This document shows, piece by piece, positions 1 to 24,136 of a stretch of DNA of 53,265 nt (position 1 is its first letter; each line of letters starts with the position of its first letter). The stretch lies in NCBI GenBank assembly GCA_004431415.1, contig QPMI01000051.1:1-53265 (forward strand), written 5' to 3'. The DNA is from Cyanophora paradoxa CCMP329. Lineage: Eukaryota; Plantae; Glaucophyta. Both the position numbers and the translations under genes were made by a program. The notes beneath the pieces were generated by a model. That model was not told the DNA's origin and searched no databases. It was given only the letters and a program-made list of their open reading frames with translations.

Positions 1-3000
1 AGAGAGCTTACTTCTCTCAATCTCAGCAGTTCTGAAACTGTAAACTTTGGCTCTCAGACCTACATACTCCAATATGCAGAACCTGGCATCTCATTTTTTA
101 TTTACCTGGGTCATTCTGGAATCACCTCAAGGTCTAATGCATAAGATATATTCTCTATCTTTTGGAATGGTCTTAGATTCAATATATAGACAGAAGGAGT
201 CAGTATCATGGAATAGTAACTTTGCTTTTGTCCATTGGGACCTTACAGTATCATAGAAGAACTGGTAATTATGCAGTTTGGCTGCATCCAAAACATAAGC
301 CCCAATTGCAACAGGCTTATCTAGTTTCACATGCTTTGTGTAAAACTCAAAGGCAACTGCTTTTTCGTTATGGGGCTTGTTGATTTCACCAATGGGGAAG
401 CTGCATATTTCATAAATAGTTCTCACTGTTGCAATCTTAACACAGATCTACCTCTGCAGATTCAATGCATTCCCATAGATTGAATTATTCATGAGCTTGT
501 AGAGAATCAGCCTCGAATTTATTCACTGCTTTCCTTCTCATCAGTATTCAGCTCAATATAGGGTTTCATTACAGGAGCCACAGTAAATGATAGGACCCTG
601 TGAACTTTTTTAATTTCACCCCTTTGTCCAACAGATATTAGGAGAGGCTCAGAAATCACATAGTTTGGTCACAGAACCAAAGGTTGCAGTTAGCTTTGGG
701 TTTTATCAAGCTCTTCTCCTGAAGATCTAATAGGCTTTTTGATATTGTGATAATTCTGCATATTCTACTATTTTCTTGTTAATAATTAGGGGGAAATCAC
801 TGTGGTCTAGATATAGCCTAATTGGGTAATCCAGATCAAACTTCCAGGAAACTGGATCTGTTATCTTGTGGGTTGAATTCGGTCTCCCATCTAAAATCAC
901 CAACTGGATTGGCTGACTCAAACAGTAGCCATACAAGTTGTTAGCATCAAAAGCATAATATGGGAGTTCTCACCATCAGCCTCAGCATACCTACAAGGCA
1001 TTGTTGCAAAGCCACCCCTGATTCCCCTCTCAACAAATTCGTATTGCTCTACATCACTTATAAGCTCTATTTTTGCCTTGGTGGTCCTAAGCATAGCATC
1101 CCAAGATAACCCAGGTGCAGATACATAATGAACTGGGTCAAGTCCATATACTGAGTGTGAAAGCCTTCTGAAGCTTGGAATTTGTTCATTAACTCATCTA
1201 CATCAGCAGCTCCAAATCCATGAAATTACTTGCATCAATGAACTTGTAAAGACCCATTGCAATGAAAGGTATTGATCAAAGTTTTTCGAAAGGATTTCGA
1301 TTCGCTTTTTATCACCCATGCCTGCTATTTTCTGAAAATGAATGTCCCACAGTCATCCATTTGGTCAACAACACTGCTACTTTGTTTGCTTTGAGATTCT
1401 CCTATGGAGATTGCAGTTTCTGCATGCAGGAGCAATATAATGACCTGTGTGGTGATCATGATCCCTGCATTTGAAGTTCTCTTGTGAACCTCTCACTGCA
1501 AAGGTAACAGTGTTTTAGTAGCCCTGTAAACAGCCTTTTGCTCATCTGTGAGTTCATTCATGGGAATATTGGTAAACAGGAAGTCAATTAGCTCTCTTGC
1601 TTTGGATTCCAAGCATTCAAACAGACCTCCCATTGGATCCTGACCCTCAAATCGAAAATCTTGAACATCTGCCCCAGTGACTATTCTAATGTTGACTGCT
1701 GAGACTTCCCTCTTGGATTTCGATGCATCTATGGGATGCTTCTATGTTCAATCTTGCAGTAAACAAACAGGAAGCCAACAGTTTTCCTGAGGTTTTTCAG
1801 TCCAAACTCTATGGTGGTCTCAGGTTTTGGTGTGATTCCCTTTGAGAGTCTCCAATCAATGCATCTGTTTGAGTCCACATGAGCAGTGAGTTTAGCCTCA
1901 GACCTGAATCGAGATAAGCATGTGTCACAGTAGTGTAACTTCTGATCATTGTATGTTTCATGGTTTACTTTCAATAGCCTTGAAAGGGACATGATTGTAA
2001 TATAGTGACCATTCCCTTCATCATCAAATATCAGCATGAGATTAACCTTATGCTTTCTGCCTGGGTTACTTGATTGATGCAGGGGATAAATAACCTCTCC
2101 ATCGATTCCAAATATATTAATGCTAATGCCTGCATTTTGAGCCTCGAATTTATCAATAATATCAGCATCACAGGCAACAGGGAATGGGATGTTATCGAAA
2201 TTGAGAGCCAGCGGATTATAAGCGATTGCTGAGTATTTCCATTTGCGATATTGTGAAAGCTCATTCCTCTTATGGAGTTTATCGCTTTTCTGTGAATATA
2301 TGCCAAAATTGCATTTTCGAAGCAGGAATCATCAATATTTCGAATATTTACTGTGGCTCTCTTCCTAGCAATCCACTCTGGGGTTTGTAGAAAGCATCCA
2401 CCAGTTGGAGCATAACTCATAATAGCCACTCTGAGTATTTCAATTCTTTCTAAGCGATAGCTATCAACCACATTCATCTGCTCCTGACACATTTGGGCTG
2501 CTTTATTCAGCTCAGTTCGAATATTTCTCGACCTGGTTAATACAAGTAATCACTGTAAATGTATTTCGATATCCAAACCTGTGGATTGCTCACTTTAACG
2601 AACTTGCAGATAAAAGACAAGCGAACCTTGATTGCCCTGAATTGATCTAAACCCTGCTTTAATCGATTTGGAAGGGATGTAGCAATTCTGTCCAGGAATT
2701 CAATCACATCTACAACAACTTCCCTTCTGGCTCTGTAAGTGAGCCAGCGATATAATTCATTCATGGCTGTTCCATCTTCTGCCTCTGGTTCTATTTGCCT
2801 AGCCTATCCAATTCATCCAAGGTTTCAATTTTATCATATAGGTTATTTGCTTTTCTGGTTAATCTGCTAAAGTGGGTCTGCCCTTTGCAATTAAATCTAT
2901 TTCCTCATATTCAGCCTCTGTAATTTCATGGCTGCATAAGTGTTCCCAGCAATCCCATGAGTTCCCATTTCTTTCCCTTATGAGTTTGTTGGTAATTCGG

Positions 3001-3005
3001 GGCAT
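1..3005 (-). CDS. polB: Protein-primed family B DNA polymerase (Polinton type), fragmented by many frameshifts and truncated by the window edge
   Basis: Minus-strand motifs read across frames: YAFDANNLYG (motif A, ~930-958), YKLMNNSIYG (motif B, ~470-503), FHDTDS (motif C, ~195-215), YGLDPVHYVSAPGLSWDAML (~1090-1150), ERGIRGG, EYVGLRAKVYS. The N-terminal part has GGCFLQTPEWIARKRATVNIRN..CF (OTU-like), a C2H2-type finger and an endonuclease-VII-like RDHDHHTGH..ACRNCN. The start ATG at 3005 is inferred. Confidence 0.93.
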
Positions 3006-3156
3006 TATTCCTAACTTGTTCCTATTCTAAGGGGATATTTTATTTTAGGATGTTCTAAACGCAATTTAAAATGTTTTAATGGATCCACTGGCTTCCTCTG
3101 AATGGAATCGCAAAAACCTATTAATCTAAATCGGGATTTCGGTTTTTGTAAATTGA

Positions 3157-3414
3157 CTATCCAAGGTTCAAAGAGATACATGTAATATGCTTCTTGTTCA
3201 TTAGGTCTTCATGCCCACCCTTCTTACTTGAATACAGGACTGAGAACTTCACATCAGAAGCCTTGCATAGGTCTGCTGTAGATGGCATTTGACCTGATTT
3301 GTGTTGTCTCCATCTTTTTTGAAGTGGCTGTGAGGTTCTTCCTATGTAGACTTTGTTCATTTCCTGACTCTCAATCATATAGATCGATCCAGAATCATGA
3401 TCTGTTCCAGCCAT
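3157..3414 (-). CDS. GIY-YIG endonuclease (short; C-terminus probably frameshifted)
   Basis: GSIYMIES...KVYIGRTSQPLQKRWRQHKS is the canonical GIY..YIG..R..QH pattern. Confidence 0.85.
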   Translation of the reverse strand: MAGTDHDSGSIYMIESQEMNKVYIGRTSQPLQKRWRQHKSGQMPSTADLCKASDVKFSVLYSSKKGGHEDLMNKKHITCISLNLG

Positions 3415-3465
3415 TTCTTACTAGTTACATATAAATATATTTTTCTATCTCTTAAATCATTTTTT

Positions 3466-3660
3466 GGTTGACTTAGTGGGTGGAGTTGAGGCACTTTTTA
3501 TTTCTTTTTAGGGCAGAGTCCTCTTTTAGAATCTGTGAAAAAATGAGTCAACTCCCCCCACTTAGTCAACCTAATCGATAAATAAACCATAAATAAAAGA
3601 CTGTTTGGGTCTTTTATGATAAATTTGAGTCAACTGTGAGTCCACTTTTGAGTAAACCTA
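3466..3660. repeat. Inverted-repeat/iteron block A (candidate origin or recombination site)
   Basis: GGTTGACTTAGTGGGTGGAGTTGAG (3466-3490) is an imperfect inverted repeat of GTCAACTCCCCCCACTTAGTCAACC (3547-3571). Further GAGTC(A/C)AC units occur at ~3625-3650. Homologous to block B. Confidence 0.8.
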
Positions 3661-6237
3661 AACTTCAACATCAGAGTCATAATCTGATGCATCAGGATCA
3701 GCAGCAGGTAGTTCTTGTTTCATCCTTGGATTAGCTTCTTCCTCAATGGTCTCATCATCTACAAGCTTCATCTTTCTGAATTCCTCAAATACTTGTGGGA
3801 ACAAGAAATGATAGTATTGTTTGCCATTTGTAGTTTTCACTTGGATATATGTACACTTCGCATTTCTGTATAATATCTGCGACTATTATAATCGTTTTTA
3901 TATTTGTTGCTGGTAATAACTCCTGGAACCATTTCCAGGTTTCCACAAGGCTACCAGACTTGCATTTATTCTCGGAAATTAAGCCTCGATCCACAAGCCA
4001 CTTAGTGAACATAAGAATGATTGGGGCGCATACCTGCTGGGCTAAATAGTATTTATTTGTAAGGGGTCTATCAGCAATCCAGTTCACATCCTCACAGTCA
4101 ACTTTGGTTCTCAAATAGTGGGCAATGTTTCGAATATTGCAGTGATCATTTAGCCATTTTACAAGTGGAAGGAAGTATGACCTATCCTTTGCGAATTTCT
4201 TACTAACTTCAACAACCACAAATCGCCTATCTCCAGCTTCAATTTTTACTGGAATGTTGTTATTGCTGGTGAATATAATCCTGGCAAAGTTGCTTTTTGT
4301 GTATGAATCTATCCCTTTGTGTTCAATTACAATCTTATCAGAAGTTATGAGATCTTTGAGCATATCATTATTTTCGAATGTGTCCTTGCCTGAGGCTTCA
4401 TTGACAACAATCAAGATCTTATCCTCTCTATGGGCAAATCGACCAAACAGATCCTCTTTTGGCTTACCAGTTGCATAACTCAGGGCATCTCCAAGTATCT
4501 TCTTTTGGAAAGTATCAACCAACACATTCTTACCAGTTCCCTGTTCACCAATGAAGATTAAGGATACTCCATTGAGTTCCCCAGGCTTTGCAGCATGTGG
4601 GCAAACCATTTCAACAGATATTCATAGGTATTTGATCCTCACCAGACATTAAGAACAAGTGATCAAGGAACAGGCTTAATCATCTCAGCAGTTACATCCT
4701 CTGGAGCATTTTCGAATTGCTGATGGTCGACCTTCATTCCTGGATAGAGATTAAATACAGGACTTGCATTTTGCACTGAGAGTAGCAGGAGGTGGGAGGA
4801 AATCCATGTAAGTTGATCTTGTGGCTGTTGGATCCACAATCCATTTCCTAAATGATTGCTCCCATTTCTCTTTCTCATTATCTGTCCCCATTCACAATCA
4901 CCTTATGCATCAATGTGGGGAAATGCTTGTAGACAGTTTTCCAATGTCTTTGGGCATCCAGCAAAAGTAGTTGTTCATCCCAGAGCATCACACAACCAAC
5001 ATTTTCAACATGATGCATGCGAGCATTGAAATACCTCTAATGCACATTGTAATGTTCAGCCAAGGAGGGATACTTGCAGTCTTGTAATCGATTTCATCTG
5101 TGTCCTCTGGTAGGAATGCATACTTTTTGGGGAAGAGTTCCTTGAAAAGCTCATTGTTATCTTGCTCAACCAATAAACCAAGGATTTGAAGGTCAACACT
5201 TTGCCAGGCTCAGCCTTCTTCTTGCTTCTGCGAAGCTGTGTAAACTTCTCCTGGCATTCATCATAATCACTTGTCACTCTGTTCTGAGAATTGGTGGAAG
5301 AGTTCAGCTTGCATTTTAGGGGTAAATTTGTTGTCTTCCCCAACATTGATGATGACCAGTCCTACATCAATCAAGTTTTATACTCATTAGCTCTCTCACC
5401 ATTCAGACCATTATAACACTTTGTAGCAGTTCGAAAGTAACAGGATTTTCGGGTTCAGTGTCTTTTTCAGCTTCTACCTTCTCAGTCTTCACTTTATCAC
5501 TTTTTGGCTCCTTTTTAACTGGTTTTGGCTCAGGGCTATAATTTGCAATGCAGAAATATTTGATTCATCCACAAGTTTAGTAGTAGCTGAGAAGTAAGAT
5601 ACAAAGAAGTCCTCATTTCGCATTAACACTTTGTCACAGTCAACGAATTTCTTAAAGCAAACGTTTTTATCAACATCTTTTTTCGACTTATTTTGAGCAT
5701 CCAGAGTCTCACCTTTGCAGCAATTGAGGCAGATTAGGTTCTGTGTGGAGCTGTAAACTCCACTGTCATAATCCTCATTTTTCACCAATCCCATCGCTTT
5801 GAAAAGCTTGGGGATATCTTCATGTTTGCATGCAAGCGATTTAATAATAAAGTGGGCTGAATCTTGAACTTGGTGACATCCTCCTTAATCAAATAAACCC
5901 TTCTATGGCGAACTGCAACAGCAATATCGTTAATAGAAGTGGTACCAGATCGCTTCCATAGCTTATCTCTCATCTCTCTTACAACAGTTTCCGCCTCAGC
6001 ATAGTTATCAGCAATGTTCTCCTTCAAATCAGCGAATTTATCCAGGTCCAGGTAAACTCTGGTCACTTGCTCAGGTTGAATGCATTCAGCCCAGGTCTTA
6101 ACTTGCTATTATCAATGGCTTCAAGGGCATCTTCGGCAGAATCAAATACATGGGTGACCTTGTTGCGATCACCAATGAGAGTACTAAGGAATGTAGCATT
6201 TTTCAACAGGGGTGGCGAATTTCTCGATTTTGTTCAT
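3658..6237 (-). CDS. D5-like AEP primase - PriCT-2 - superfamily 3 helicase fusion (fragmented by frameshifts)
   Basis: RVYLDLD (AEP motif I) and DSGVYSSTQNL (AEP motif III); LTFKSLVYWVEQDN (PriCT-2-like); GEQGTGKN Walker A, ILIVVNEA Walker B, IIFTSNN motif C and DRRF in ORF 3785-4609. The start ATG at 6237 is inferred. Confidence 0.88.
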
Positions 6238-6419
6238 TTTCGATTTTGGGGACTTCTACCTTTAACGAAGAAAATAATTTCGGAAGGAGGAATTGTCTTT
6301 TAATATAATTCCTATTATTTGCAAGTCCTTAAGTAGTTTTGGGTCGGGATACTGTCTCGATATAGTAGGGTACAGTTTTTAAAAAAGAGGGAAGGAAAGC
6401 TGTCATTTTTTTGCTCCGA

Positions 6420-6790
6420 TCAAATCGATTTCTACAAAATTTGTTTCGATCGAGAATTTATTCTTCGATATATTTCGCGAGGTCTTCCAACCGGTTTATG
6501 CTCTTTGGGTTTCTTGGGCTGTTCATCTTTCTTCTTGTGGTAATATTCCAGCGCTTTGCCTTTTTTTGCTCCGCGATATTCCTTCATTTTTCCACTGTTT
6601 TCCTCTGGTGTCTGAGGGCAATCTTTTTGAGTTCTTTCTGGTGTGTGAACTGTAGCGGCTCCTTGGGATAATCGTTCCTGCTTCTTTTTATGATAGGCTT
6701 CGCGTTTTCTTGGGCATCTTGGCTCCCTTTTCAGTCTCGAAGCTTCTCTGCTTTTTCATCATCTGTGAGTATCTTGCGGATATTCGGCAT
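6420..6790 (-). CDS. Small Lys/Arg/Glu-rich hypothetical protein (frameshifted)
   Basis: ATG at 6790 (MPNIRKILTDDEKAEKLR...) preceded by TATTAAAG, followed by K/R/E-rich broken frames. End is approximate. Confidence 0.4.
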
Positions 6791-6936
6791 TTCTCTTTAA
6801 TAGTAGATACGAAAATATTTTTCCTCAATACAATCTATCTACTTTCCTTAAGTCATTTTTTGTTGCGAACACCAGTTCCTGTCTGTAAACTTTTATAGCT
6901 GCCTCCAGTGGCATAACTGAGACCGCTTTTTCTCAA

Positions 6937-7155
6937 TTATCTTATAGACCTGGGGTCCATTGCTACTTTCAGTAGGCAAATAATATTTAATTGTCTAGCG
7001 CTCTGGGTCTCTGCTTCCCTTTTTGGGCTTCTTCTGCGGATAGATAGGATGCCAGGGCTTGCTGCTTTTTTATACTCTCTATATGCTGGGTCCTCTCTAT
7101 ATCGTTTCTGCATTGCTAGAATGTGTCTAATAGACCTCAGTAACAGGTTCATCAC
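6937..7155 (-). CDS. Small basic hypothetical protein
   Basis: MQKRYREDPAYREYKKAA resembles the basic helical DNA-binding segments common in small viral ORFs. Boundaries uncertain. Confidence 0.35.
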   Translation of the reverse strand: MMNLLLRSIRHILAMQKRYREDPAYREYKKAASPGILSIRRRSPKREAETQSARQLNIICLLKVAMDPRSIR

Positions 7156-7173
7156 TGGTAAAACTCGATTAAA

Positions 7174-7447
7174 CTAATAGTGTCCTCCATTTATATTCCA
7201 GAGAAAAACGTTTTCTGGCTGGCAGAGAACTTCTCCTTGATACTCCTGTTGCTCATATGTATACTCTGTGGGGTCTGCTGGCATTGACTCCACAGAAATC
7301 GTAGACCTCCTTCTCTCTCTTGCTTCTGAGGCATTATCCTCAGTATCTGACAATCTCAAACTCCACTCTTGTCTCACAGCATCCACTGTGGCAATTGCTC
7401 ACCACATGCAGACTGAACATCTCGAAAAACTTTCGTATTATATCCAT
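7174..7447 (-). CDS. Small hypothetical protein with SNCHSGCC cysteine motif (frameshifted)
   Basis: ATG 7447 gives MDIIRKFFEMFSLHVVSNCHSGCCETRVEFEI, then shifts into the 7174-7386 frame. Confidence 0.4.
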
Positions 7448-7656
7448 GTCTCTAATAAAACAGAGATAATTAAAAGCCAAACTCGTCTTTTATATACTGT
7501 GGGAGCTACTCCCTTTCCTACTTCAGCTTTAGTGGCACCAGGTTCAATGGTTCCCTTCTGGGTCTTTGTTTTCATTTCATCTACTGCCCTGCTCATCGAT
7601 TTGTGTTCTCTTTCTTAGCAATAAACTGTTTATCTGGGACACCAGTAATGCCCATT

Positions 7657-8209
7657 TTAATAAACTTCCTTTCGAAGCATCTCCTTTAGCTTGGCTCTCT
7701 CTTTCTTCTCAGTAACATACTGCTCCAAGGCACTTGATTTGGCTTCCAGATCTTTGAGTTTAGCAGTCATCTCATCCCATTGAGCCTTGGGAATTCGATG
7801 AATATTTTGAGTGGGAGCAGTCTTATATGTGACTTCACCAGCCATAGACTGGATTACCTTGTCTGATTCTTTACTGAGACCCTCACCTTTGCGAGCCAGT
7901 GATAGATCTTGCAAGCCTAAACCTTTATCATCAGCAGCACCAATAATTCGCCTGGCTCCCGCTCAGCAACAGCCTTCATCTTTGAGGCTTCAGGTGAAAT
8001 GTTGGAGTTGGTCACTGGTTGAAGCCTGTGGGGCTTTGTCATCAAATGATTCCTCATAGGCAGCATTGAGGGGGTCTTCTTGTTGTTGAGAGGGCTTCAC
8101 TTCATTCATACCATTGAATTCAGTGGGTCTGTGTTAATGGATCCATTGTTTCCACCACCTGAATAGCCAACAGCCCCAGCTGGGATCCTATCTTTCGTTT
8201 GGGAGGCAT
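7657..8209 (-). CDS. Hypothetical protein with N-terminal PPKRK and C-terminal coiled coil (possible core protein; frameshifted)
   Basis: ATG 8209 MPPKRK preceded by TAATAAAG. ORF 7657-7914 contains the coiled-coil WDEMTAKLKDLEAKSSALEQYV. Confidence 0.45.
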
Positions 8210-8271
8210 TGTATCTTTATTAGAATGAGAGATAATTTTATAAACCGCGTTTATATCGCATCAATTTATTG

Positions 8272-9015
8272 CTATGGACTTGGCTTTTCACTTCTTTGGG
8301 GCTTCCTCTTTCTCTGGTGGTTTCAGTTCATCTTCTTTCTTTTTGGCTTCCTGTGGAAGCGAGGAAATGGGAAATCTTTCACAAGCTCAGCTTTATCTAC
8401 ATAGTATTTAACTGAGTAGTTTGCAGAGGACCAAATGATATACTGATAGGAGTGAACATACTCTTCAAACATCTTGTAGAAATCCTCTTTATTTCGCATA
8501 TATTGTATTCTTCCTCTATGGCTTCCAGTTCTTTGCGATTTGCAGCACTTAGAAACATTGCATAATCCGAATTTACTCGAATAGTCGAAGAGACTTTTCT
8601 TAGCTTTTGTGTGATGCAGATAATGGATATTTTCGAATGGCGACCTCTGGAATACAGAGATCCGATTATTTATCCCTTGTGAGATCGACTATCTCATTAT
8701 CGATTAAATCATCTAAAACCAACACAATTGGTTAACAGGTTCACCTTTCTCTATTTTCTCTTGCCTCTCATCTAGCAATTTAGCAATGTAAGGGGCATCC
8801 CATTTTCCCAGTTGCAGTGTTGCCACTTTATCCCAGAAATGATTGAAGCTGGTTCCACTCACAACTAATACAACATCAATCTTTTTGGCATCATGTAATT
8901 GCTTTAACCAATACTTTACAGCTTCTGATTTACCAGTTGCTGATTTTCCTATTGCCAATACACGAAATGGTGGTTCTATCATTTCACCAGCCACAAATTC
9001 ATCCAAATCAGTCAT
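8272..9015 (-). CDS. A32/FtsK-HerA family genome-packaging ATPase (frameshifted)
   Basis: PFRVLAIGKSATGKS Walker A. After a shift near 8715 it reads ..DDLI (Walker B) and GSLYSRGRHSKISIICITQKLRKVSSTIRVNSDY (the A32 RGRH..Q..R.N signature). End is approximate. Confidence 0.92.
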
Positions 9016-9080
9016 TGTTGTATATCTTTCTTAATAAAGACATATAAAAATAATGCAGGGAGACTGAAAATCGTAACAAT

Positions 9081-11512: not shown

Positions 11513-11541
11513 TCTTCTTTTATCTATATTTATATATTAAA

Positions 11542-14020: not shown

Positions 14021-14063
14021 CTTTTACTTATCAAGAATTTTATAAATCCATATAGTAAAAGCC

Positions 14064-17000
14064 ATGAGCTTCAATTACCCACCCAATCTAGAAACCATTC
14101 AAGATGATAATGCAAGCAGCACCAAGCATGTGAACTTTGATAATATTAAAGTAAAGGGTTCAGTTTCGATTGACCACAGCTCTGATAATTCATCAAAGAC
14201 TCAATCAAGGAGCATGCTTTATCTGTGAATCAAACCGATCCAGATAAAGAGGAGGTCAGTGTTGCTTTTAGTTTGGGTAATGTGAAAGCAAACCAAGTGG
14301 CAGAGATCAAAGCAACAAGAAGGAGACCTAGGAAACTAAAAACCAGTGGCACTCACCCAGATATACCTTCCAGGTTCGATAGTGGTCGATTGATTTTCAA
14401 TGTTCAAGATGAGCAGGGCAAACAGAACACAGCTTTGCGAATTTACAATGAGGGCAGCACTGCAAAAGCTGAGGTCCCCCAAGTATTGCAAGTGGGTCCC
14501 ATTGCCAACACAAATCAGGTCTCCTACACAAATGATGTCTACCCAAAGGATATTACATATGACTTTGCAAGGAATGAGCCTTTTGGGTTCTTTACTCCAA
14601 AAGATGTCCATCAAAAAAAGCCATCAATTACAATCAACAGTAGCCCCAGTCAACCAGTAGCAATCCATTTACATCCTGATTTAGTCGAAATGGATAGGCA
14701 CCTTTTGCCTTTGTATAGCAATGTGAAAGACCTTGGAATTCGAACCAGGCAATGGCGAAATATCCATGGCAGTAATGTGTATGCAAATGGTGAGAAGCTT
14801 GTAAGTGAGAAGACCATAAGAGAGATCTTTGAGTATTATGGACCTGTCCCAGTTCCCTTCCCTCTTCCATGGGATCCACCGGATTTAACACCAAAGAAGC
14901 AGCCTGGAAGAGAATACACAGCAACTGAAGATGTAGCCTTTGGGCAGCATATTGTTAGTTGGGAGCAAGTTCGCAATAAACCGATAATTGAACCCAGAAA
15001 GCAAATAGATGAGCAGTATTTACCTCCTGAAGTCGATATTTTAGAGCTTGATGAATATCAATTCGTTCCAGATGAGGAGGAGTATTTACCAGATGGTTTT
15101 GACCCACAAGAATATGAATATGATCAGTATGACCCCAATGAGGAGGAGATACTACCAGATGGCTTAGATCCTCAAGAGTATGAGTATGAGCAGAACTATG
15201 AACCTGATGAGGAGTATTTACCAGATGGTCATGATCCACCAGTTGTTGACTATGAGCAACCTTATGAACCCCATGAGGAATTATTACCAGATGGATTTCG
15301 ACCTGAGATCTGGGAGTTCTTTCCTGATTATGAACAAATTAATAATAAACCTGCAAAGTATCCCCCAGAGGATCACAATCATGATTGGGATGAGATCTTA
15401 GGCAAACCTCAAAAGTATCCACCAGAGGATCACAGGCATGATTGGGGTGAAATTGATGGGATACCTACTGAGTTCCCACCAAGCAAACATGAACATATTT
15501 GGGATGAGATCAATGACCAACCAGAATTTGCAAAGGTAGAGCCTCTTGATAACTTGGGGGTTTCTCTTTACCAGACTTGCAATGTCCCTGAAAGAATCTT
15601 TTTGAATGAACACTATGTACATGTGAATGGGACACTTGCGAATTCAGCTATGAGAGGACCACTTCATATTAGGACATTACCAGGCTCTTTTGAAACCCCA
15701 CCACCACCAGGAGCAACCATACCAAATATCTTTGTGTCAAGCTACATGGAGGCTGACATTCCCACAGATACATTCAGAGTCCCAACAGACCCAGCAACCT
15801 ACCAAAATTACAACTCTGCTATACAGGTTCATGTAGCAGATGTAAGCAGCTTAGATGGCTCAAGACCAATGATAGTATTCAGTCGAGATAAATATTCCTA
15901 CATTCCCATAGTGGGAACTGCAAATGATAACTATGGGAGGGCAGAGCTTGCATGGATTAAAACAAACTATGGTGGGGTTCTGGAAGCCAATCAGAGGATG
16001 GCTGCAAAGAATATTCACAATGAGACTATTTCGAGAGTGGTCACAGAGGATTACCTAACGGCTGTAATTCTCGTTAATTTCGTAACTCTTGCGATGCTTG
16101 GAAATTATGTAACAAAACCTGAACTTGCGGTGGAATTATCAAAATATCTCCCGCTTGTTGGTGGGACAATCACAGGAGATCTTACGGTTAATAGTAATAT
16201 TTACAGTAGCAACATAGAGACCAGCAACCTAAAAGTGAATGGAATTCTTACGGTTGGTTCATGTAATTTTAATACCATAAATCAACTTTACAGAGAATGG
16301 TATGATGTCCCAGCAAGCTTTGATCCAGCATTAAATATCTCAAATTGCATTTTTGCTTGGAAGGCATCAGGACAACCAGGTCAATCAGCAATGTTTACAA
16401 CTATAATAAGTAGAGTCCCAAATTCAGTTGTTCCAGACATGTTTATCTCCGGAGCCAGTTCCTATTACACCAATCCCGAAATCAACAACCAAATTAGTGT
16501 TTCAAACCCAACAGGCACTTTTTATGCATATACCTCTGCTGCAAGAACTATTGATTTCTCAAATGGGCTTACATTTTTCTTTGTGGGAAAATATCATCCA
16601 ACTACCTCTTCTATGCAAGTTCATTTGAGACTTTACAGAAGCGCCTCTCCATCACGATATTGTTATTATGGGGCAACATCTTCTACTGCTATTGGAATGA
16701 ACCAGTTTACTATTAATGGAGTATCCCAAACCCGCCCAGTTATTACGGTTCCTTCTTTAATAAATACATGGTATTACACTGACCAAACAATTACTCCCAA
16801 CAGCTACACAGTCGGGTTAAATGGAGTAGATATTCAAACACTTGTAGGAACGAATTATCTACCAGATAATACTGTCAATCATTTCGGATTTGGTAATATT
16901 GTGAATGGTGGTATTTCCGAGTTGATTGTTTTCAATAGGGCTTTGACAACTTCTGAAAAGAATGCTGTGAGGTATTACATTCAACAAAAATATGGATTCA

Positions 17001-20000
17001 CTCATACCCAGACTCTGAATATTTACAGAGGATTAAAAATAACCTCACCTGATACTGTAATAGATTACCTTACAGTTACAAGCAATGCAAATTTACCACA
17101 TCATCCAACCTCTAATGTGGTTCAAGGTTGGATTCAAAATCACACTCACACAAAAGCCCAGATTACAGATTTTGCCCATACTCACACAAAAGCCCAGATT
17201 ACAGATTTTGCCCATACTCACACAAAAGACCAAATAACAGATTTCGCCCATACTCACACAAAAGACCAAATAACAGATTTCGCCCATACTCACACAAAAG
17301 CGCAAATCACAGATTTTGCCCATACTCACACCAAAGATCAGATCACAGATTTCGCCCATACTCATTTATGGGAGCATATCACAAATCCTCCATTAACCTT
17401 CCCACCTGATTCACACACTCATGATTACTCAACAATAACCAATAGCAACCACAGACACCCTTGGAGCGAAATAGACGAAAAACCACGTTTTGCATCGACA
17501 GGTGATTTAGTAAATGGTGACGGATTTTATGGGGTCAGTTTCTACCAAAGTGATACCATCGCTGAAAGATTACAATTAAGTGAATACTATTTACACCGAA
17601 AAGGAATTGAAGCAGGCACCACAATGGAAGGAGAATTATACATTAAACAACCAACAAGAACAACATTAGTAGCAGCAGGTGGCGATGCATTAATAGACAC
17701 CAAACCGGGTATTTATCTTACAAGTTACTATAATGCGGATATCCCGTTAACAACAGGATTACCACCGCTACCATCTGATCCAGTGGGTTATAGTCATAAA
17801 GACGCCATTTTACAAGTAAACGTTACAGATGTAAGCGCAACTGATGGTTCACGTCCAAAAATTATATTTAGTCGCTCGAAATTCAATTACGTCCCACTTG
17901 TGGGACAACCATATGATGATCATGGTAAATGTGAGATGGCGTGGATTAAAACGACAACAGGTGGCGCCTTAGAAGTTAATCAGAGAATGGCGGCGAAAAA
18001 CTTACACAATGAGACCCTTTCAGGTGTTGTAACAGATGATTACATGCAAAGCAAAAATATGTAGATGATACACATACTCACACCAAAGATCAAATCACAG
18101 ATTTTGCCCATACTCACACCAAAGATCAGATCACAGATTTCGCCATTCTCATTTATGGGAGCATATCACAAATCCTCCATTAACCTTTCCTCCGGATTCA
18201 CACACTCACGATTACTTGCCTCTCACAGGAGGAACAATTTCATCAAATCTTACGATTTCATCCAATTTGAATGTTTTAGGAAAAATTCAAATTGGAGACA
18301 AAAATACAAACATTGATGTATACTATGATGCACCCTATTATCCTGTTACTTCTAATACAGACCCTGCTTCTACCATACCAAATTGCCTCTTAACAATAAG
18401 ATTAGATGGTGTCCCTGTTGGAATAAACATCAGTCATGCCTTCATTGCAAATAGAGCAACTTTGGCGAGTCCCTTTATTTCCGGAGTTACCTTTCCATGG
18501 TGTGGATTCAACACAATAACTCAATTGAGATCTGATTACAATAACCGAAACATTGCACAACAACCTACTTATTCATATACAAGCCGGGAATTTGGGATGC
18601 CGTATCCCGTAACTGTGGATTGGTCAAAAGGTATCACCATCTTCTTTGCAGGTTCTTATAGATTTTGGGGACCGTGGGTAGATCTCTTAAATTTTAGTTC
18701 ACCAGATGGAACTAATAAAGTATCCTTTGGGACAACAGGTAGCAGTATGGGTATACATTCTTATACAAGCAATGGTGTGACTTACCCAGCAGCACACTTA
18801 AATTATCCCACATCGTATTCTGAGTTGTCGCCGAATCATTGGGACTTTACAGTTTCTTCAAATGTCTGCACTTTCGGATTTAACGGACAAGATTTAGGCA
18901 CAGTCATTACAGAAGTGGATTATCTTCCACCTTCCACTTTTAGTAGGATGGGTGTTGCCTATTTCATTACGGCAGTAGGGGAATATATTATATTCAACAG
19001 AGCATTGACATTTGATGAAAGGCAAAAAGTGAGATATTATATGCAAGATTATTTTGGCTTTCCAAAAAAGCAAACAATCGTTATTCCTGATAATCTACGC
19101 ATTTCTGCTGAAAATGTTCATATTAGAAATTTAATCGTTTCTTCAAATGCAAGCATTCCAAACTATACCACATCAAATGTGGTTCAAGGTTGGATACAGA
19201 ACCACACACCTGCGTGGTCAAATATCACAGACAAACCATTAACATTTGCTCCTGATACTCACACTCACACAAAGTCTCAAATCACAGATTTTGACCATAC
19301 TCACACAAAAGCGCAAATAACAGATTTTGACCATAAACATGTTAAAGCAGATATTACAGATTTTGACCATACTCACACAAAAGCGCAAATAACAGATTTC
19401 GCACACAAACATGTCAAAGCAGATATTACAGATTTTGACCATGAACATACAAAAGATCAAATAACAGATTTCGCACATAGGCACGATTGGGACGAAATAG
19501 ATGAAAAACCACGTTTTGCATCGACAGGTGATATTGTTAATGGTGACGGATTTTATGGGGTGAGTTTCTATCAGAGTGACACCATCGCTGAAAGATTACA
19601 ATTAAGTGATTTCTATTTACACCGAAAGGGAATTGAAGCAGGCACCACAATGGAAGGAGAATTATACATTAAACAACCAACAAGAACAACATTAGTAGCA
19701 GCAGGTGGTGATACATTGATTGATACCAAACCGGGTATTTATCTTACAAGTTACTATAATGCGGATATCCCAGTTACAGGAGGATTACCACCGCTACCAT
19801 CTGATCCAGCAACTTATGATGACAAAGATGCCATTTTGCAAGTGAATGTAACAGATGTAAGCGCTACTGATGGTTCACGTCCAAAAATTATATTTAGTCG
19901 CTCCAAATTCAATTATGCAACTCTTGCGGGACAGCCAAAAGATGATTTCGGGAAATGTGAGATGGCGTGGATTAAAACATTAGCAGGTGGCGCCTTAGAA

Positions 20001-21410
20001 GTTAATCAGAGAATGGCGGCGAAAAACTTACACAATGAGACCCTTTCGGGTGTAGTCACAGATGATTATTTGCAAAGTAAAAACTATGTGGATGAAACAG
20101 AATTGGGAGTCGCACTTCAAACTCACAATCATTTATGGGAGGATATTACAGATAAACCTTTAACATTTCCACCATCCCTACATACACATTTATGGAGCCA
20201 TATTACGGATAGACCCACCTTAGCAACAGTTGCAACAACAGGGAATTATGATGATCTTATAAATAAACCAACATACACATCTCCCATTAACTTTGATGCC
20301 ACAAATGGTCTTTCCACAGATCGCACAGGTGATTGGAGATTTTTTACATTCATATCTCCTTACTCAGGAGCAAACACATGGGCTTCTGGTGATGAAGATT
20401 GTAGTAGCTACAAGATGTTATGGACTGTCCCCGCGGGAATGAAAACATGCTATATCTTCTACATGTGTCAATATAATAGCAGATACTTCGATGTTGTGGG
20501 AGTTTATCCATCAACGAATTCTTATACACTTTCGAGAGTAAATGCTTATTCTCCTGGTATTGACCCAAGTGTAGAGTATAGGCAATATGTCGGAGTGAAT
20601 TGTGAAGGGCTGAGTAAAGTGGGTGTTCAAGGGCGAATAGGAAGGATTTACCTTGTGGGTCTTGTAGGTTGGAGCAAGAACCCTGCTGTATCTTCACATA
20701 GTGGATACATGCATTGGGATAATATTTATGGGAAACCAACAGCTTCAACATCAGTTGGACCTCATTCCCACACTAAATCAGAAATCACAGATTTTGCACA
20801 TACCCATACAAGAGCGCAAATAACAGATTTCGCCCATACTCATACCAAATCGGAAATCACGGATTTCCCAAGTTTAGACCCGTTCACAGCCAATACGATC
20901 ACAGCAAATAATACCATGTATGTAGGATCGGGTTCAATAGTAACGCCCGCATCACCAACAAATGAGGAGACTTGGTTCTTCCACAATTCCACAAACTTTT
21001 ATGATAAAACCCTACTGTGTCGCGGAAATGCTTATGCGAGAGCATTTTATGCAATGAATGCGGGAACAACCAACACAATTAGCCAACTTCCAACATGGTA
21101 TGATATAGAAAGACGTTTCAAATCAGGAAAATACGAAGCTACAAGTGGTGTGATAAGCGCGGGTCAAACAACACAGCATGCATATGTTTTACATTGGAAT
21201 CCTGCTTTTTACACACAAACACCTGTTGTAAATGCCACACTTCAAGGAACTCCTGCAACAAACCCAGGGGATATAGATTTTAGAATTGGAATCTCAAACT
21301 CCACATCTAACTATACAACAATTTATGTGACATTCATAGCATCCCCTACTCTATCTTCAAGCCGAAGTATCACTTGCACAATCCATTGGACAGCATATGG
21401 AATCCCATAA
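14064..21410 (+). CDS. Giant modular fibre/adhesin-like protein (~2,450 aa if ORFs 14225-18064 and 18216-21410 plus a 14064 leader are joined)
   Basis: HTHTKxQITDF(A/D) and HxHxW repeats (phage-tail-repeat-like); three copies of a ~200-aa module; two LamG/ConA-like domains ending ELIVFNRALT..RYY; C-terminal F..TPVV..HWTAYG tail-fibre-tip-like domain. Comparing repeat copies shows single-base losses at ~18057 and ~18143. Confidence 0.8.
15045..15530 (+). repeat. Coding tandem repeats: 4x ~22-aa acidic (E..LPDG.DP..Y.Y) then 3x ~20-aa (KYPPEDH.HDW.EI)
   Basis: Directly visible in translation and DNA (TACCAGATGG recurs about every 66 nt). Confidence 0.85.
17140..17365 (+). repeat. 33-bp coding tandem repeat (HTHTKxQITDFA) x6; further arrays at ~18070-18145, ~19260-19480 and ~20760-20870
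   Basis: CATACTCACACAAAAG..CA.AT.ACAGATTT.GCC repeated with 33-nt period. Confidence 0.95.
17461..20093 (+). repeat. ~600-bp direct repeat pair (17461-18066 and 19487-20093), with a diverged third copy at ~15500-16055
   Basis: Both copies encode EKPRFASTGD..GFYGVSFYQSDTIAERLQLS..NQRMAAKNLHNETLSGVVTDDY. Many differences are synonymous. Confidence 0.95.
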
Positions 21411-21459
21411 TAAATGCATATTTCGCATTATTTTTCTTTCCTTCTTAGTAAAAGAAGCA

Positions 21460-22314
21460 ATGGGTGAATACAATCGAGTTCAACTGCCCATTTATTCGCT
21501 TGGATCGCCAGCTATGCACTTTCGACAACATGAAGTTAATGATGAAGTCCGCGGTTTAGAATCCACAGAGAGACCCAATTCTAATGGTAACTCCTTTGAT
21601 AAAAACTCGATAATTCGTGTAAAAGAACTCCGAGCCGATAAGAATTCGGGTGTAGTTAAAACCACACGACTACTTGTAACAAATGCTAACTTCTTTCAAC
21701 CGACAAATGGAGGTCCTGATGCATACAGTGTAGATTTAAAAGCCCTCGATTTCGATAAGAATACTGCTGCTGTTACTGTGAGATCAGGAGGAGCATTTAT
21801 TGGTGGAGGTTGCAGAGTTTCAGGTCAGCTATCTTCATCTGTTTCCTACAATGATGTCCCAGATACTCTCGAACAAAATGTGGAGAACCCACAACGAATT
21901 CGTTTCTACACACCTGTTGCACAGCAACCTTTTTTGCATTTCTATGTTGCATCCTCTGTAACTCTTGAGAATTCGGAATTAGTTTCCATTACAGGAACTG
22001 ATCGAGTAAGAAGAAATATTCCTCTTCCCACTGCAATGCTTTCCATGTGTAGAGCCAATAATAATCAACCAGGTCACAACTACTTATTCTTTGTTCAAGC
22101 TTCGAACCATTTTGGCAGAGGATATTGTGTTTATAACAATTTGACATTTACCTATGATCTGTTTGTCACTGAGGTTGGAGTATACAATACTATGATTATG
22201 GGACTGAGAACAGATATAGCAGCTGTATCAGCACTTCGTGGGGTAAATGTTGCTGATATATTCACAACAGGATTTTACCAAGAATTAGATGTAATTGATG
22301 ACCCAACCCCATAA
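21460..22314 (+). CDS. Putative virion/fibre-associated protein, paralog 1
   Basis: Intact ORF; likely start MGEYN at 21460 after TAGTAAAAG. Shares ELR.DKN.G.VKTT.LLVTNANF and SGGA.IG.G.RV.G with the next gene. Confidence 0.65.
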   Translation: MGEYNRVQLPIYSLGSPAMHFRQHEVNDEVRGLESTERPNSNGNSFDKNSIIRVKELRADKNSGVVKTTRLLVTNANFFQPTNGGPDAYSVDLKALDFDKNTAAVTVRSGGAFIGGGCRVSGQLSSSVSYNDVPDTLEQNVENPQRIRFYTPVAQQPFLHFYVASSVTLENSELVSITGTDRVRRNIPLPTAMLSMCRANNNQPGHNYLFFVQASNHFGRGYCVYNNLTFTYDLFVTEVGVYNTMIMGLRTDIAAVSALRGVNVADIFTTGFYQELDVIDDPTP

Positions 22315-22337
22315 AAGATATATCCCTTTAATGTAAA

Positions 22338-23174
22338 ATGGCAGAGGCACCCACACCAATAGAGCGAATTATAACACCACAGCTATCATTAGCTGCCCCA
22401 GCAAACCATGTTTTACAGCATGCTACTTTTGATGATGTGGAAGGTCTCCAATCCACAGAGGTCCAACCTACAATGAACACCTTTGGTTCCACCCACAAAC
22501 TGAGATTGCAGGAACTCAGATGTGATAAAAATAATGGAATAGTTAAGACAACTAAGCTACTTGTTACCAATGCAAACTTTTCTGCTCATTATGGAGACCC
22601 AGATAGCTATGGAGATCCTCTTTCTACTTATTCTTTTGAATCTAGGTCGGGAGCTATTAACTGCAAATCGGGGGGAGCTTATATTGGTGATGGTCTTAGG
22701 GTTGGTGGGGCTGTTGGAGCGCCTTTATTTGTGAATGATCAACCCAATCCCATTGATCCCAATACAAGAATTCGAACCTATGTCCCCAGCATGAATGCCC
22801 CCTATATAATCAAAATATTCCCCATTGTAGTAAATGAACAGACAGCAGTAATAGATTCTCTTGTTGAGATTGGTGACCACTACAAGGTTGTTGTGGATAT
22901 TCCACCAGATGTATATGCTGTATGTCAAGTGGAGGGTGGAACTCCTAATTTTGCAGTTGTGATCACCCCATATGATAATTTTGGTATTGCTTATCATGGA
23001 GTCAATTTCGGTTTGGAAGACTATCAGTTTCTGGTGAGAGCCACCAAGTTTGGTATCTACAAGTGTGTGATGTTTGCAGAGAGAACAGATTTTATTGCAA
23101 AGCAGAATACCTATGCTGAATACTATGGCACAAATCGATATTTCCCCATTTTTGGGCAGGATACTGCTCCATAA
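22338..23174 (+). CDS. Putative virion/fibre-associated protein, paralog 2
   Basis: Intact 278 aa; clear paralog of the preceding ORF. Confidence 0.65.
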   Translation: MAEAPTPIERIITPQLSLAAPANHVLQHATFDDVEGLQSTEVQPTMNTFGSTHKLRLQELRCDKNNGIVKTTKLLVTNANFSAHYGDPDSYGDPLSTYSFESRSGAINCKSGGAYIGDGLRVGGAVGAPLFVNDQPNPIDPNTRIRTYVPSMNAPYIIKIFPIVVNEQTAVIDSLVEIGDHYKVVVDIPPDVYAVCQVEGGTPNFAVVITPYDNFGIAYHGVNFGLEDYQFLVRATKFGIYKCVMFAERTDFIAKQNTYAEYYGTNRYFPIFGQDTAP

Positions 23175-23196
23175 GAATATTGGTTATATATAGAGT

Positions 23197-23469
23197 ATGG
23201 ATAGTAAAACAAAAAAGTTTATTGATGCTGCTATGACAGTCCATGGTAAAGATAAATTCGATTACAGTGAGACACATTACATCAAAGCTCAAGAGAAAGT
23301 ATCTGTTAGATGTTTGCAGTGTAATAAGGTGATCCTTACCTATCCCTTTAATCATGTGAAGGGATCAGGGTGTAGGGAATGCAACAAAAAGCACTCTCAG
23401 GCTTATAGGAAAAGGGCTACTTCATCAATTAGAGTAGAGTATAGGGATATTTGCATTAGGTTCGATTAG
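23197..23469 (+). CDS. Zn-ribbon protein (DUF723-like, as found in homing-endonuclease-associated viral proteins)
   Basis: FIDAAMTVHGKDKFDYSETHY...VSVRCLQC...PFNHVKGSGCREC pattern. No nuclease domain is attached. Confidence 0.7.
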   Translation: MDSKTKKFIDAAMTVHGKDKFDYSETHYIKAQEKVSVRCLQCNKVILTYPFNHVKGSGCRECNKKHSQAYRKRATSSIRVEYRDICIRFD

Positions 23470-23498
23470 GTTTAATTAATTTTTCTAAGGTATTCTTA

Positions 23499-23897
23499 AT
23501 GGAGACTCAATACAGAGGCTTTCATGTTATGCTTGATTACAAAGCTAAATCAGCTATAGCAACAGGATATGAGCATGTGAGCTTTCTAGGGAATTGGATA
23601 ATGGGAACCCTTGAACAAGCAGTATTAAGACAAGGCATTAGGATTGTTCATAAACACTGTGAGATATTTGATGGCAAAGTATCACCTCCTGGTTTTGCAT
23701 TGGTTCTGCTATTAGATGAAAGCCACTGTACAGCTCATTGTTATTCCAATGAAGGCATGTTAGCAATTGATATATTCAGTTGTGGTAAAGAAGCTCAGCA
23801 TAAAACACAAGCAGTAGCAGATGAGATCGATAAAACAATGAATTTCCTCACATTTGAGAAGACTGAGAGACATAAACATGATAGATTTCCGTTTTGA
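23499..23897 (+). CDS. speD: S-adenosylmethionine decarboxylase proenzyme, small prokaryotic type (pyruvoyl-dependent)
   Basis: GFHVMLD..PPGFALVLLLDESHCTAHCYSNEGMLAIDIFSCG, with the ESH self-cleavage site and the D.F.CG motif. Confidence 0.9.
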   Translation: METQYRGFHVMLDYKAKSAIATGYEHVSFLGNWIMGTLEQAVLRQGIRIVHKHCEIFDGKVSPPGFALVLLLDESHCTAHCYSNEGMLAIDIFSCGKEAQHKTQAVADEIDKTMNFLTFEKTERHKHDRFPF

Positions 23898-24136
23898 TGA
23901 GTTTCTATAATGATGATCAGGGTGATTTACCTTTTTGATTACAATAGCTTTCTACAATAATTATTTTCCGGATTCCGGACATTTTTTACGATAGAATTCT
24001 ACTGTATGATGAAGCCAAAATATGAATGCACCCTACATTTAGCAATGTCAAATAATTAGAATAATGTTCGATTTCCTTACACTAAAACCTCAGCATCTCC
24101 CCTTGATTCCCCCTATTATATAATATTTATATTAAA

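What the first reader, a model, noticed from the sequence alone, without database searches (positions are those of the whole stretch)
1..24100. Context-specific CpG avoidance: CG survives almost only as TCG or CGA
Seen: by hand count 14064-16050 has 17 CpGs, 16 of them preceded by T or followed by A. The same bias is visible in the pPolB, MCP, penton, patatin and 21.4-23.9 kb genes on both strands. Chance expectation at this composition is roughly half. Inference: the palindromic class [ACG]CG[CGT] is purged, pointing to long-term evasion of, or deamination by, a flank-selective cytosine methyltransferase or nuclease. The adjacent host DNA is full of such sites.
Basis: partly seen in the sequence, partly recalled or inferred. 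Interest (0 to 1): 0.75.

Follow-up and report, generated by a model that had tools for sequence, protein, structure and literature searches.

The report
Algal virus purged of enzyme targets
A virus integrated in an alga's genome has lost most CG pairs in a neighbour-dependent way and separately lacks several short words (GGCC, GTAC, GTGC on one strand), likely scars of host methylation and of DNA-cutting enzymes, probably from a giant virus.

Summary
Positions 1-~24.9 kb are one copy of a multi-copy polinton-like virus (PLV) in Cyanophora paradoxa. In the core, 211 of 243 CpGs are TCG or CGA, and the bias survives synonymous-codon shuffling (0 of 1000). It is absent from a fibre module, 16050-21175 (58 of 118). 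The pattern is not a purged [ACG]CG[CGT] class. It is a graded, multiplicative flank effect (survival T 1.05, G 0.53, C 0.28, A 0.20), and only TCGA is spared.

GGCC occurs 0 times (29 expected), GDGCHC 0 (18), GTAC 8 (53) and CTNNAG 33 (86). GTGC occurs once against 44 GCAC on one strand, whatever the gene direction. GTAC, CTAG and CTNNAG are fully absent from the fibre module, and the host DNA keeps all these words.

Best reading: the CpG layer comes from host CpG methylation, by decay plus selection. The word layer is restriction-site avoidance, including a T7/EcoP15-like one-orientation site, most likely against nucleases of a helper giant virus. No enzyme was identified, and no sibling or outgroup DNA could be analysed in full.

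The parts
1..16049 (.). PLV core, left part: flank-graded CpG loss plus purge of non-CpG words. The left end of the element lies outside the window
130..2803 (-). Protein-primed family B DNA polymerase, in frameshifted pieces. This module (1-3465) has 0 GCAC and 1 GTGC (7.5 and 8.0 expected)
   Evidence: DANNLYG and DTDS motifs in the translation (motif identity recalled); Atlas neighbours are polinton-type DNA_pol_B_2 clusters at 0.84, a lead only; no Pfam hit for the four pieces scanned; counts
3160..3417 (-). GIY-YIG endonuclease
   Evidence: PF01541 E=2.6e-9
3466..3648 (.). Inverted repeat, partner of 24134-24321 (69% over 191 nt)
3788..4621 (-). Superfamily 3 helicase / primase-helicase C-terminal part
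   Evidence: PF19263 E=7.7e-22; family label recalled
8400..9030 (-). A32-like packaging ATPase, frameshifted
   Evidence: PF04665 E=0.0017, below the curated cut-off; Walker A motif visible
9084..10450 (-). Double jelly-roll major capsid protein, one frameshift
   Evidence: 56-66% to P0002 over its full length; low-confidence model of P0002 (pLDDT 40) hits PBCV-1 MCP E=1.8e-5 and Tetraselmis viridis virus S1 E=3.7e-7
10507..12474 (.).
   Evidence: no Pfam hit
12464..14020 (-). Patatin-like phospholipase fused to an F5/8 discoidin domain
   Evidence: PF01734 E=2e-20, PF00754 E=2.1e-6; this fusion is described for PLVs, incl. glaucophyte ones (PMC12220804)
14690..18064 (+). Fibre gene 1: 5' part (to about 16049) has the core CpG bias, 3' part does not
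16050..21175 (.). Fibre module: no CpG flank bias, but 0 GGCC, GTAC, GTGC, GDGCHC, CTNNAG, CTAG in 16049-21200; partly low-depth among sibling copies
   Evidence: depth and joints
18597..21410 (+). Fibre gene 2 with phage-tail repeats
   Evidence: PF12789 E=0.0011; homologs are phage tail-repeat proteins
21176..24130 (.). PLV core, right part: CpG bias resumes; two unassigned ORFs (21397-22314, 22338-23174), a small zinc-finger-like ORF and AdoMet decarboxylase
23499..23897 (+). S-adenosylmethionine decarboxylase-like gene
   Evidence: PF02675 E=2.8e-11; PDB AdoMetDC E=5.5e-5 with the ESH cleavage motif aligned
24134..24921 (.). Right terminal region: inverted repeat 24134-24321, AT-rich stretch with repeated ATCGA words, 73-nt hairpin 24849-24921 at the host junction

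Best explanation
This integrated polinton-like virus carries two separable sequence scars: a graded loss of CpG (only TCGA spared), likely left by the alga's own CpG methylation, and a near-complete absence of GGCC, GTAC, GDGCHC, CTNNAG and one-strand GTGC, likely selected by restriction-type nucleases, probably of a helper giant virus. SHOWN: both patterns, their independence from codon usage, their absence from host DNA, and their dissociation in the fibre module. INFERRED, CpG layer: resident copies are methylated by host DNMT1/DNMT3. Sites with A or C flanks would be methylated best and T-flanked sites worst. Methylated sites decay by deamination, and copies that shift constrained CpGs into poor contexts would stay easier to reactivate. 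INFERRED, word layer: during replication alongside a giant virus, unmethylated PLV DNA would be cut at the palindromic words. An asymmetric 4-bp site read as GYAC would be tolerated only if all copies face one way, as with T7 and EcoP15. That single rule accounts for GCAC kept on one strand, GTGC lost there, and the palindrome GTAC lost. INFERRED: the fibre module is a recent swap-in from the replicating virus pool, fully purged of the words but not yet eroded at CpG.
For: Codon-shuffle controls: CpG classes; GGCC 0 vs 19.0, GTAC 5 vs 43.8, GTGC 1 vs 30.2, GDGCHC 0 vs 14.6, CTNNAG 19 vs 59.8, CTAG 14 vs 33.2, each with 0 of 500 shuffles as low. GCAC:GTGC on the + strand is 17:1 in minus-strand gene regions, 9:0 in plus-strand regions, 14:0 in the fibre module and 156:139 in host DNA. 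Host DNA keeps GDGCHC (122 vs 132) and CTNNAG (179 vs 165) and GGCC (387). The fibre module has none of the six words yet keeps about 60 VCGB sites. A graded model fits the CpG layer. Flanks of amino-acid-constrained CpGs are skewed too: CGA 35 vs CGG 2, and T precedes 47 of 61 Arg CGN codons against 30% background. The host methylates CpG and viral genes and carries giant-virus insertions (PMC12344493). CTAG and CTNNAG are measured 6mA motifs of the algal giant virus AaV (PMC12700378). The window's GTAC at 23728 reads GCAC in 262.6/262.6, 4349/5346 and 6148/6148 of contig depth in three runs. One percent random substitution would add about 2-3 GGCC or GTGC sites, so the purge is recent or ongoing.
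Against: No methyltransferase or nuclease with these specificities was found, and the host genome was not available. Mouse DNMT1 prefers TTCGAA, ATCGAT, ATCGAA and TTCGAT and disfavours C at -2 (PMC7381644), so it does not predict TCGA sparing; only its dislike of G at -1 agrees. Of five AaV palindromes only CTAG and CTNNAG match: CTNAG and TGNNCA are not depleted and GTNNAC is marginal (18 and 32 of 300), and the passages read mention no AaV nuclease. The core keeps 7+1 GTAC, 21 CTAG and 33 CTNNAG, so those purges are incomplete. GCAC itself is mildly low (44 vs 77 by Markov; 8 of 500 shuffles), and the pPolB module has neither orientation. TCG survives better than CGA on the coding strand (25/88 vs 14/123, p=0.005), which a purely duplex-level enzyme does not explain. 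An IR-bounded host segment (30859-37935) shows no CpG loss or flank bias. R-M against virophages was not supported in Acanthamoeba systems (PMC7253447). All counts come from one error-prone copy.
Confidence: 0.5

Rival explanations
1. One cause: a battery of giant-virus restriction enzymes whose sites include many CpG words (ACGT, CCGG, GCGC, ACGG, GACG and others). TCGA survives only because no enzyme cuts it. Host methylation plays little part.
For: Several CpG 4-mers are near zero in the core (ACGG/CCGT 1, GACG/CGTC 1). The element clearly avoids restriction-like words. The Arg codon skew points to selection.
Against: The fibre module is completely clear of the non-CpG words yet keeps the CpG words. 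The loss is smooth and multiplicative. Even TCGA is halved at silent sites.
Confidence: 0.17
2. The CpG layer is passive: uniform methylation plus flank-dependent deamination (the human clock signature SBS1 ranks ACG highest and TCG lowest; recalled, not checked), with no selection on CpG. The word layer is as in the best explanation.
For: CA/TG excess of 1.26 matches the CpG lost, and TTGA shows no excess where TCGA is kept. The order A<C<G<T is close to the recalled SBS1 order. The coding-strand asymmetry fits transcription-linked decay.
Against: CpGs fixed by Arg codons are as skewed as silent ones or more: CGG 2 of 37 against 25% expected from silent-site skew, p=0.002. Mutation alone should leave them less skewed unless selection against mutational load is strong.
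Confidence: 0.15
3. The non-CpG words are self-avoidance: the cutter is encoded by this PLV family (for example its GIY-YIG nuclease) or by competing PLVs, and is aimed at giant-virus or rival DNA.
For: A GIY-YIG gene lies next to the internal inverted repeat. PLVs with nuclease plus methylase pairs have been discussed (PMC12220804).
Against: One small nuclease cannot plausibly account for five unrelated words. No methyltransferase was found among the ORFs scanned, though the left end is missing.
Confidence: 0.1
4. The one-strand loss of GTGC reflects replication asymmetry (a strand-specific nicking, priming or editing signal) and not a two-site restriction enzyme.
For: Chloroviruses encode site-specific nicking enzymes (PMC7248222). 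The bias is uniform over 3466-24130 and changes at the internal inverted repeat.
Against: The transition products ATGC and GTGT are not enriched in the expected orientation in raw counts (99/143 and 60/87) and are only weakly so after codon shuffling (z 0.5-2.4). A nickase would penalise only closely spaced opposite sites, not 20 kb.
Confidence: 0.06
5. Codon or amino-acid usage, or assembly error, makes the patterns.
For: The left 11.5 kb has many frameshifts, and short-read contigs disagree at many indels.
Against: The patterns survive codon shuffling. Of the 40 best-supported differences shown (2774 more not shown), none creates GTGC, GTAC or GGCC, and only 2 create a CpG, both in the fibre module. 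Errors would add such words, not remove them.
Confidence: 0.02

Closest known systems
Endogenous polinton-like viruses of protists, incl. Cyanophora paradoxa PLVs (PMC12220804)
   Same: Double jelly-roll capsid, packaging ATPase, phage-tail-repeat fibres, patatin fused to discoidin, many copies in the host genome
   Different: The passages read describe gene content and suggest PLV methylases as protection from giant-virus R-M; 'CpG' has 0 occurrences in that text. This copy shows protection by site loss, and no methylase was found in the window.
Restriction-site avoidance in phages; T7 strand bias of EcoP15 (Type III) sites (PMC3874151)
   Same: Palindromic words missing, and an asymmetric word present in only one orientation (T7: 36 sites, all one way; here 44:1)
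   Different: Eukaryotic virus; 4-bp word, whereas Type III sites are mostly 5-6 bp (recalled; H. pylori ModH5 GACC is a 4-bp case, PMC5700931 abstract); enzyme unknown
Giant-virus methyltransferase and R-M motifs (AaV, PMC12700378; chloroviruses, PMC7248222; marseilleviruses, PMC7253447)
   Same: CTAG and CTNNAG are AaV 6mA motifs; R-M was proposed as an anti-virophage weapon
   Different: CTNAG, TGNNCA, CATG and (in the core) GATC are not avoided here; the proposal was not supported in Acanthamoeba mimiviruses
Host 5mC silencing of endogenous viruses (Cyanophora, PMC12344493; Amoebidium, PMC11244446)
   Same: CpG methylation of viral insertions; Amoebidium shows that context preference exists (CGC/GCG)
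   Different: No flank preference is reported for Cyanophora in the passages and supplement legends read; the order here (T spared most, then G) matches neither Amoebidium nor mouse DNMT1
Pandoravirus AGCT absence (10.1101/712018)
   Same: A 4-mer eliminated from a eukaryotic DNA virus
   Different: One word in a giant virus, with R-M rejected there; here several words, one oriented, in a PLV, and AGCT is normal in the element as a whole (60 vs 64.4)

Membership tests
Polinton-like virus | Double jelly-roll major capsid protein | tested here: met
   Homolog P0002 (56-66% identical) models, at low confidence, onto PBCV-1 MCP and the TVS1 PLV protein
Polinton-like virus | A32/FtsK packaging ATPase | tested here: inconclusive
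   PF04665 E=0.0017, below cut-off, on a frameshifted piece
Polinton-like virus | Minor capsid (penton) protein | not tested
   Candidates at 10507-12474 have no Pfam hit; not folded
Polinton-like virus | Replication gene (pPolB and/or SF3 helicase) | tested here: met
   Helicase PF19263 E=7.7e-22; pPolB by motifs and an Atlas lead
Polinton-like virus | Integrase or recombinase and terminal repeats | tested here: inconclusive
   None found among the 25 ORFs scanned; left end outside the window; an inverted repeat pair lies at 3466/24321
Polinton-like virus | 14-40 kb, low GC, multi-copy in a protist genome | tested here: met
   At least 24.9 kb, 40% GC against 70% host; many divergent contigs in three runs; host gene matches C. 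paradoxa
Type III-like strand-biased site avoidance | Asymmetric site in one orientation, independent of gene direction | tested here: met
   44:1, p=2.6e-12 among all 4-mer pairs; 17:1, 9:0, 14:0 by region
Type III-like strand-biased site avoidance | Cognate Mod/Res enzyme needing two inverted sites | not testable with these tools
   No host or helper-virus genome held
Type II R-M site avoidance | Palindromic 4-6 bp words depleted beyond codon and shorter-word effects | tested here: met
Type II R-M site avoidance | Matching nuclease and methylase in an interacting genome | not testable with these tools
   Only an analogy with AaV motifs, 2 of 5
Footprint of mammalian-type DNMT1 flank preference | Survivors are DNMT1-disfavoured flanks (G at -1, C at -2), and WTCGAW is lost | tested here: not met
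   G partly spared (0.53), but ATCGAA and TTCGAA are the commonest survivors and are DNMT1-preferred; C at -2 is under-represented among survivors (0.74)
Host CpG-methylation erosion of endogenous viruses | CpG deficit with TpG/CpA excess | tested here: met
   CpG 0.31, CA/TG 1.26 in 1-16050
Host CpG-methylation erosion of endogenous viruses | The element is methylated, with context levels that match the losses | not testable with these tools
   Needs per-site EM-seq; the paper's supplement legends give no context breakdown
RIP-like TpCpG hypermutation of basidiomycetes (recalled) | TCG is the preferred target | tested here: not met
   TCG is the most spared context

The most novel reading that the evidence does not exclude
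A giant virus of Cyanophora defends itself against its polinton-like parasites with a bacterial-style restriction arsenal that includes a two-site, orientation-dependent (Type III-like) nuclease for GYAC, and the PLV has escaped as phage T7 did, by deleting palindromic sites and aligning all asymmetric ones, while separately tuning its CpGs away from a host methyltransferase that ignores TCGA. Missing words in endogenous PLVs would then read out the defence enzymes of uncultured giant viruses.
Probability: 0.3. Interest if true: 0.9.

Novelty: new variant of a known kind. Interest (0 to 1): 0.7.

Why it matters
Restriction-modification as an anti-virophage weapon of giant viruses has been proposed but was not supported where it was examined (PMC7253447). 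This element names the exact words to test (GGCC, GTAC, GDGCHC, CTAG, CTNNAG, oriented GCAC), in a host with a published methylome and known giant-virus insertions. The CpG layer predicts an unreported flank preference of a glaucophyte DNMT that existing EM-seq data can confirm or reject. The fibre module acts as an internal control that separates the two pressures and marks recently exchanged DNA. Four searches and two on CpG loss listed no paper that, by title or abstract start, reports such avoidance in PLVs or virophages. The library lacks most subscription journals, and searches listed 15 of 16 and 15 of 103 hits.

Tried and rejected
Sibling or outgroup DNA was not obtained. No genome is held. 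Related-locus searches found nothing with MCP, the MCP alignment (44, 45), helicase (33), patatin (34) or AdoMetDC (83), nor did a repeat motif (84). Protein searches gave one more Cyanophora MCP and one unnamed relative, without DNA. A targeted second read-laying gave no result, so most rare 'forbidden' sites of this copy remain unchecked against other copies. No RNA holder was listed, which is no evidence on expression.

A bipartite AGC(N6)TC word looked depleted (9 vs 43). It fell within the null after codon shuffling (z -3.8; null minimum median -3.56, 5% -4.09, over 12769 patterns), and the host control gave equally small p-values, so it was dropped. TA-containing gapped words were read as TpA avoidance and not followed. 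The Atlas search for the 21397 ORF did not complete. PADLOC gave only weak homing-endonuclease hits for the GIY-YIG gene. A PDB sequence search with the MCP profile gave nothing. Earlier findings of this scan: none returned. A full correlation with the DNMT1 profile was not run; only parts 1 and 4 of 6 of that source-data file were read, and it gives binned ranks.


Full report
WHAT THE WINDOW IS. Bases 1 to about 24,900 are 40% GC and the rest 70% GC. A host gene at 41-44 kb matches protein P0001 exon by exon, and P0001 is a Cyanophora paradoxa record. The low-GC part encodes pPolB pieces, a GIY-YIG nuclease, a helicase, a weak A32 ATPase hit, a patatin-discoidin fusion, two fibre genes and an AdoMet decarboxylase. 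The capsid gene is 56-66% identical to another C. paradoxa protein, P0002. A low-confidence model of P0002 (pLDDT 40) hits double jelly-roll capsids of PBCV-1 and the PLV TVS1. Short-read contigs from three runs show many divergent copies and contradict many of the window's indels, so some frameshifts are probably assembly error or copy-specific. This is one copy of an endogenous PLV family; Cyanophora PLVs are mentioned in PMC12220804 (passages).

THE OBSERVATION. The hand count is right: 16 of 17. Over 1-24100, 269 of 361 CpGs are TCG or CGA against 0.51 expected; the host has 1194 of 4062 against 0.279. Shuffling synonymous codons within 21 coding pieces does not remove the bias. In core genes TCGA is 38 (34.2 expected), one-sided sites 56 (113.9) and VCGB 9 (88.7), and 0 of 1000 shuffles reach the observed fraction. 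The pieces cover 16.5 of 24.1 kb; short frameshifted stretches of uncertain frame were left out of the codon tests but are in the whole-sequence counts.

TWO CORRECTIONS. First, the bias stops in 16050-21175 (change point). There it is 58 of 118, or 39 of 80 after removing repeats, against 211 of 243 outside. Second, it is graded. The same order appears in three of four core segments fitted separately; in 21201-24130 C and G swap. At silent sites, retention is TCGA 27/48.0, TCGB 25/88.3, VCGA 14/123.2 and VCGB 10/194.8. Counted by the strand whose C would mutate, 5' T and 3' A protect equally (19/249 vs 20/237). Counted on the coding strand, TCG survives better than CGA (p=0.005). I cannot explain that asymmetry.

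DECAY OR SELECTION. CA/TG excess (1.26) matches the CpG lost, which fits deamination but also silent escape. Arg codons, where the CpG is fixed by the protein, are strongly skewed: CGA 35, CGG 2, CGC 18, CGT 6, and T precedes 47 of 61 against 30% background. That favours some selection on context, although selection against mutational load would look alike. The host has DNMT1 and DNMT3, 32% CpG methylation, methylated viral genes and giant-virus insertions (PMC12344493; passages, sections 5 and 9, supplement legends). No context breakdown was seen there, and its figures could not be viewed. Mouse DNMT1 does not predict the pattern: the commonest survivors here, ATCGAA and TTCGAA, are in its preferred bin (PMC7381644; passages and parts 1 and 4 of the source-data file). 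Amoebidium shows that protist DNMTs can have other preferences (PMC11244446, passages). So the enzyme preference is a prediction, not a match.

THE SECOND LAYER. Scanning all 4-mers showed words without CpG missing. On the + strand of 1-24130, GGCC is 0 (29.1 expected), GTAC 8 (53.4) and GTGC 1 (50.7), while GCAC is 44 (76.9). The 44:1 split (p=2.6e-12) holds in minus-strand genes (17:1), plus-strand genes (9:0) and the fibre module (14:0), and not in the host (156:139). Among 2122 degenerate 6-bp palindromes, CTNNAG (33 vs 85.9) and GDGCHC (0 vs 17.8) stand out beyond 4-mer effects. These words and CTAG pass codon shuffling at 0 of 500, and host DNA is not depleted for GDGCHC or CTNNAG. The fibre module has none of the six (for example CTNNAG 0 vs 17.8, GTAC 0 vs 17.8), yet keeps about 60 VCGB sites. 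The two layers therefore separate. Parts of that module have about tenfold lower contig depth, and other copies skip it (contig depth is no copy number), which fits a recently swapped module.

NOT AN ARTEFACT. Of the 40 differences shown (2774 not shown), none creates GTGC, GTAC or GGCC. Two create a CpG, both in the fibre module, and four remove one. The window's GTAC at 23728 is GCAC in nearly all other depth, as the orientation rule predicts; this is a single site. One percent random change would add 2-3 GGCC or GTGC.

MECHANISM. Missing palindromes plus an asymmetric word in one orientation is the pattern of restriction avoidance in phages. T7 has all 36 EcoP15 sites in one orientation and escapes an enzyme that needs two inverted sites (PMC3874151, passages). 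A site GYAC under that rule explains the loss of GTGC and of GTAC together. A 4-bp Type III site has precedent (PMC5700931, abstract). The likeliest source in an algal cell is a giant virus. Such viruses encode R-M systems, and their use against virophages was proposed, though not supported in Acanthamoeba (PMC7253447, passages). The algal giant virus AaV methylates CTAG and CTNNAG (PMC12700378, passages and section 19), but three of its other palindromes are not clearly avoided here. Chloroviruses also encode nicking enzymes (PMC7248222, passages), which keeps a nickase rival open. That PLVs depend on a giant virus is general knowledge and is untested for this family. The pPolB module (1-3465) has neither GCAC nor much GTGC (0 and 1), which the simple rule does not predict. 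Pandoravirus AGCT loss is a precedent where R-M was rejected (10.1101/712018, abstract and section 11).

VERDICT. The patterns are near certain. My estimates: host methylation as the cause of the CpG layer about 0.6, nuclease selection as the cause of the word layer about 0.75, a giant-virus source about 0.55, and the joint account 0.5. It is a new variant of known kinds (CpG erosion, restriction avoidance) in a setting where my searches listed no report. Other papers opened: PMC6704402 (passages: assembly method, 67.6% GC), PMC12524719 (passages, not used), 10.64898/2026.10.09.758095 (passages, not used; bioRxiv supplements are closed). Type III site lengths, SBS1, RIP contexts and polymerase motif names are recalled.

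Noticed in passing
window 23499-23897: The PLV encodes an S-adenosylmethionine decarboxylase-like protein with the ESH self-cleavage motif. It may serve polyamine synthesis; draining SAM could also blunt host methylation, as phage T3 SAMase does against restriction (recalled). Untested.
   Followed up: partly
window 24849-24921: A 73-nt hairpin with a 29-bp perfect stem sits at the virus-host junction (-31 kcal/mol, z -9.6): a possible terminal or integration structure.
   Followed up: partly
window 3466-3648 and 24134-24321: An inverted repeat (69%) lies inside the element and separates the pPolB + GIY-YIG module from the rest; a 34-nt part also recurs as a direct repeat at 3538 and 24288. 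Other copies diverge right after 24255.
   Followed up: partly
window 1-3465: The pPolB module has 0 GCAC and 1 GTGC (7.5 and 8.0 expected) and TGCA 30 against 12, unlike the rest of the element.
   Followed up: partly
window 24600-24850: AT-rich non-coding stretch with repeated ATCGA-type words; all 13 CpGs counted in 24131-24880 are TCG or CGA. Origin-like.
   Followed up: no
window 17213-18072 and 19260-20099: The two fibre genes share an 860-nt duplicated block (83%) and 36-nt tandem repeats; other copies skip or swap these parts.
   Followed up: partly
window 12001-24000: CTGG is rarer than CCAG on the + strand in the right half (12 vs 61 in 3-kb bins; z -3.6 in plus-strand genes) but not in the left half: a possible second oriented word.
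   Followed up: no
window 1-24130: AANTT and AANNTT are depleted in core coding sequence (51 vs 85.7; 67 vs 99.1), and AGNAC (50 vs 94.8 over all coding pieces). Unexplained.
   Followed up: no
window 21397-23174: Two adjacent ORFs with similar N-terminal parts and no Pfam or PADLOC hit.
   Followed up: partly
window 30859-37935: Host segment bounded by 58-nt inverted repeats (97%), possibly a DNA transposon or captured block, holding kinase-like and methyltransferase-like exons (by eye); no CpG loss or flank bias.
   Followed up: partly
window 41054-43951: Host kinesin-associated protein 3-like gene matching C. paradoxa P0001 (PF05804 listed).
   Followed up: yes
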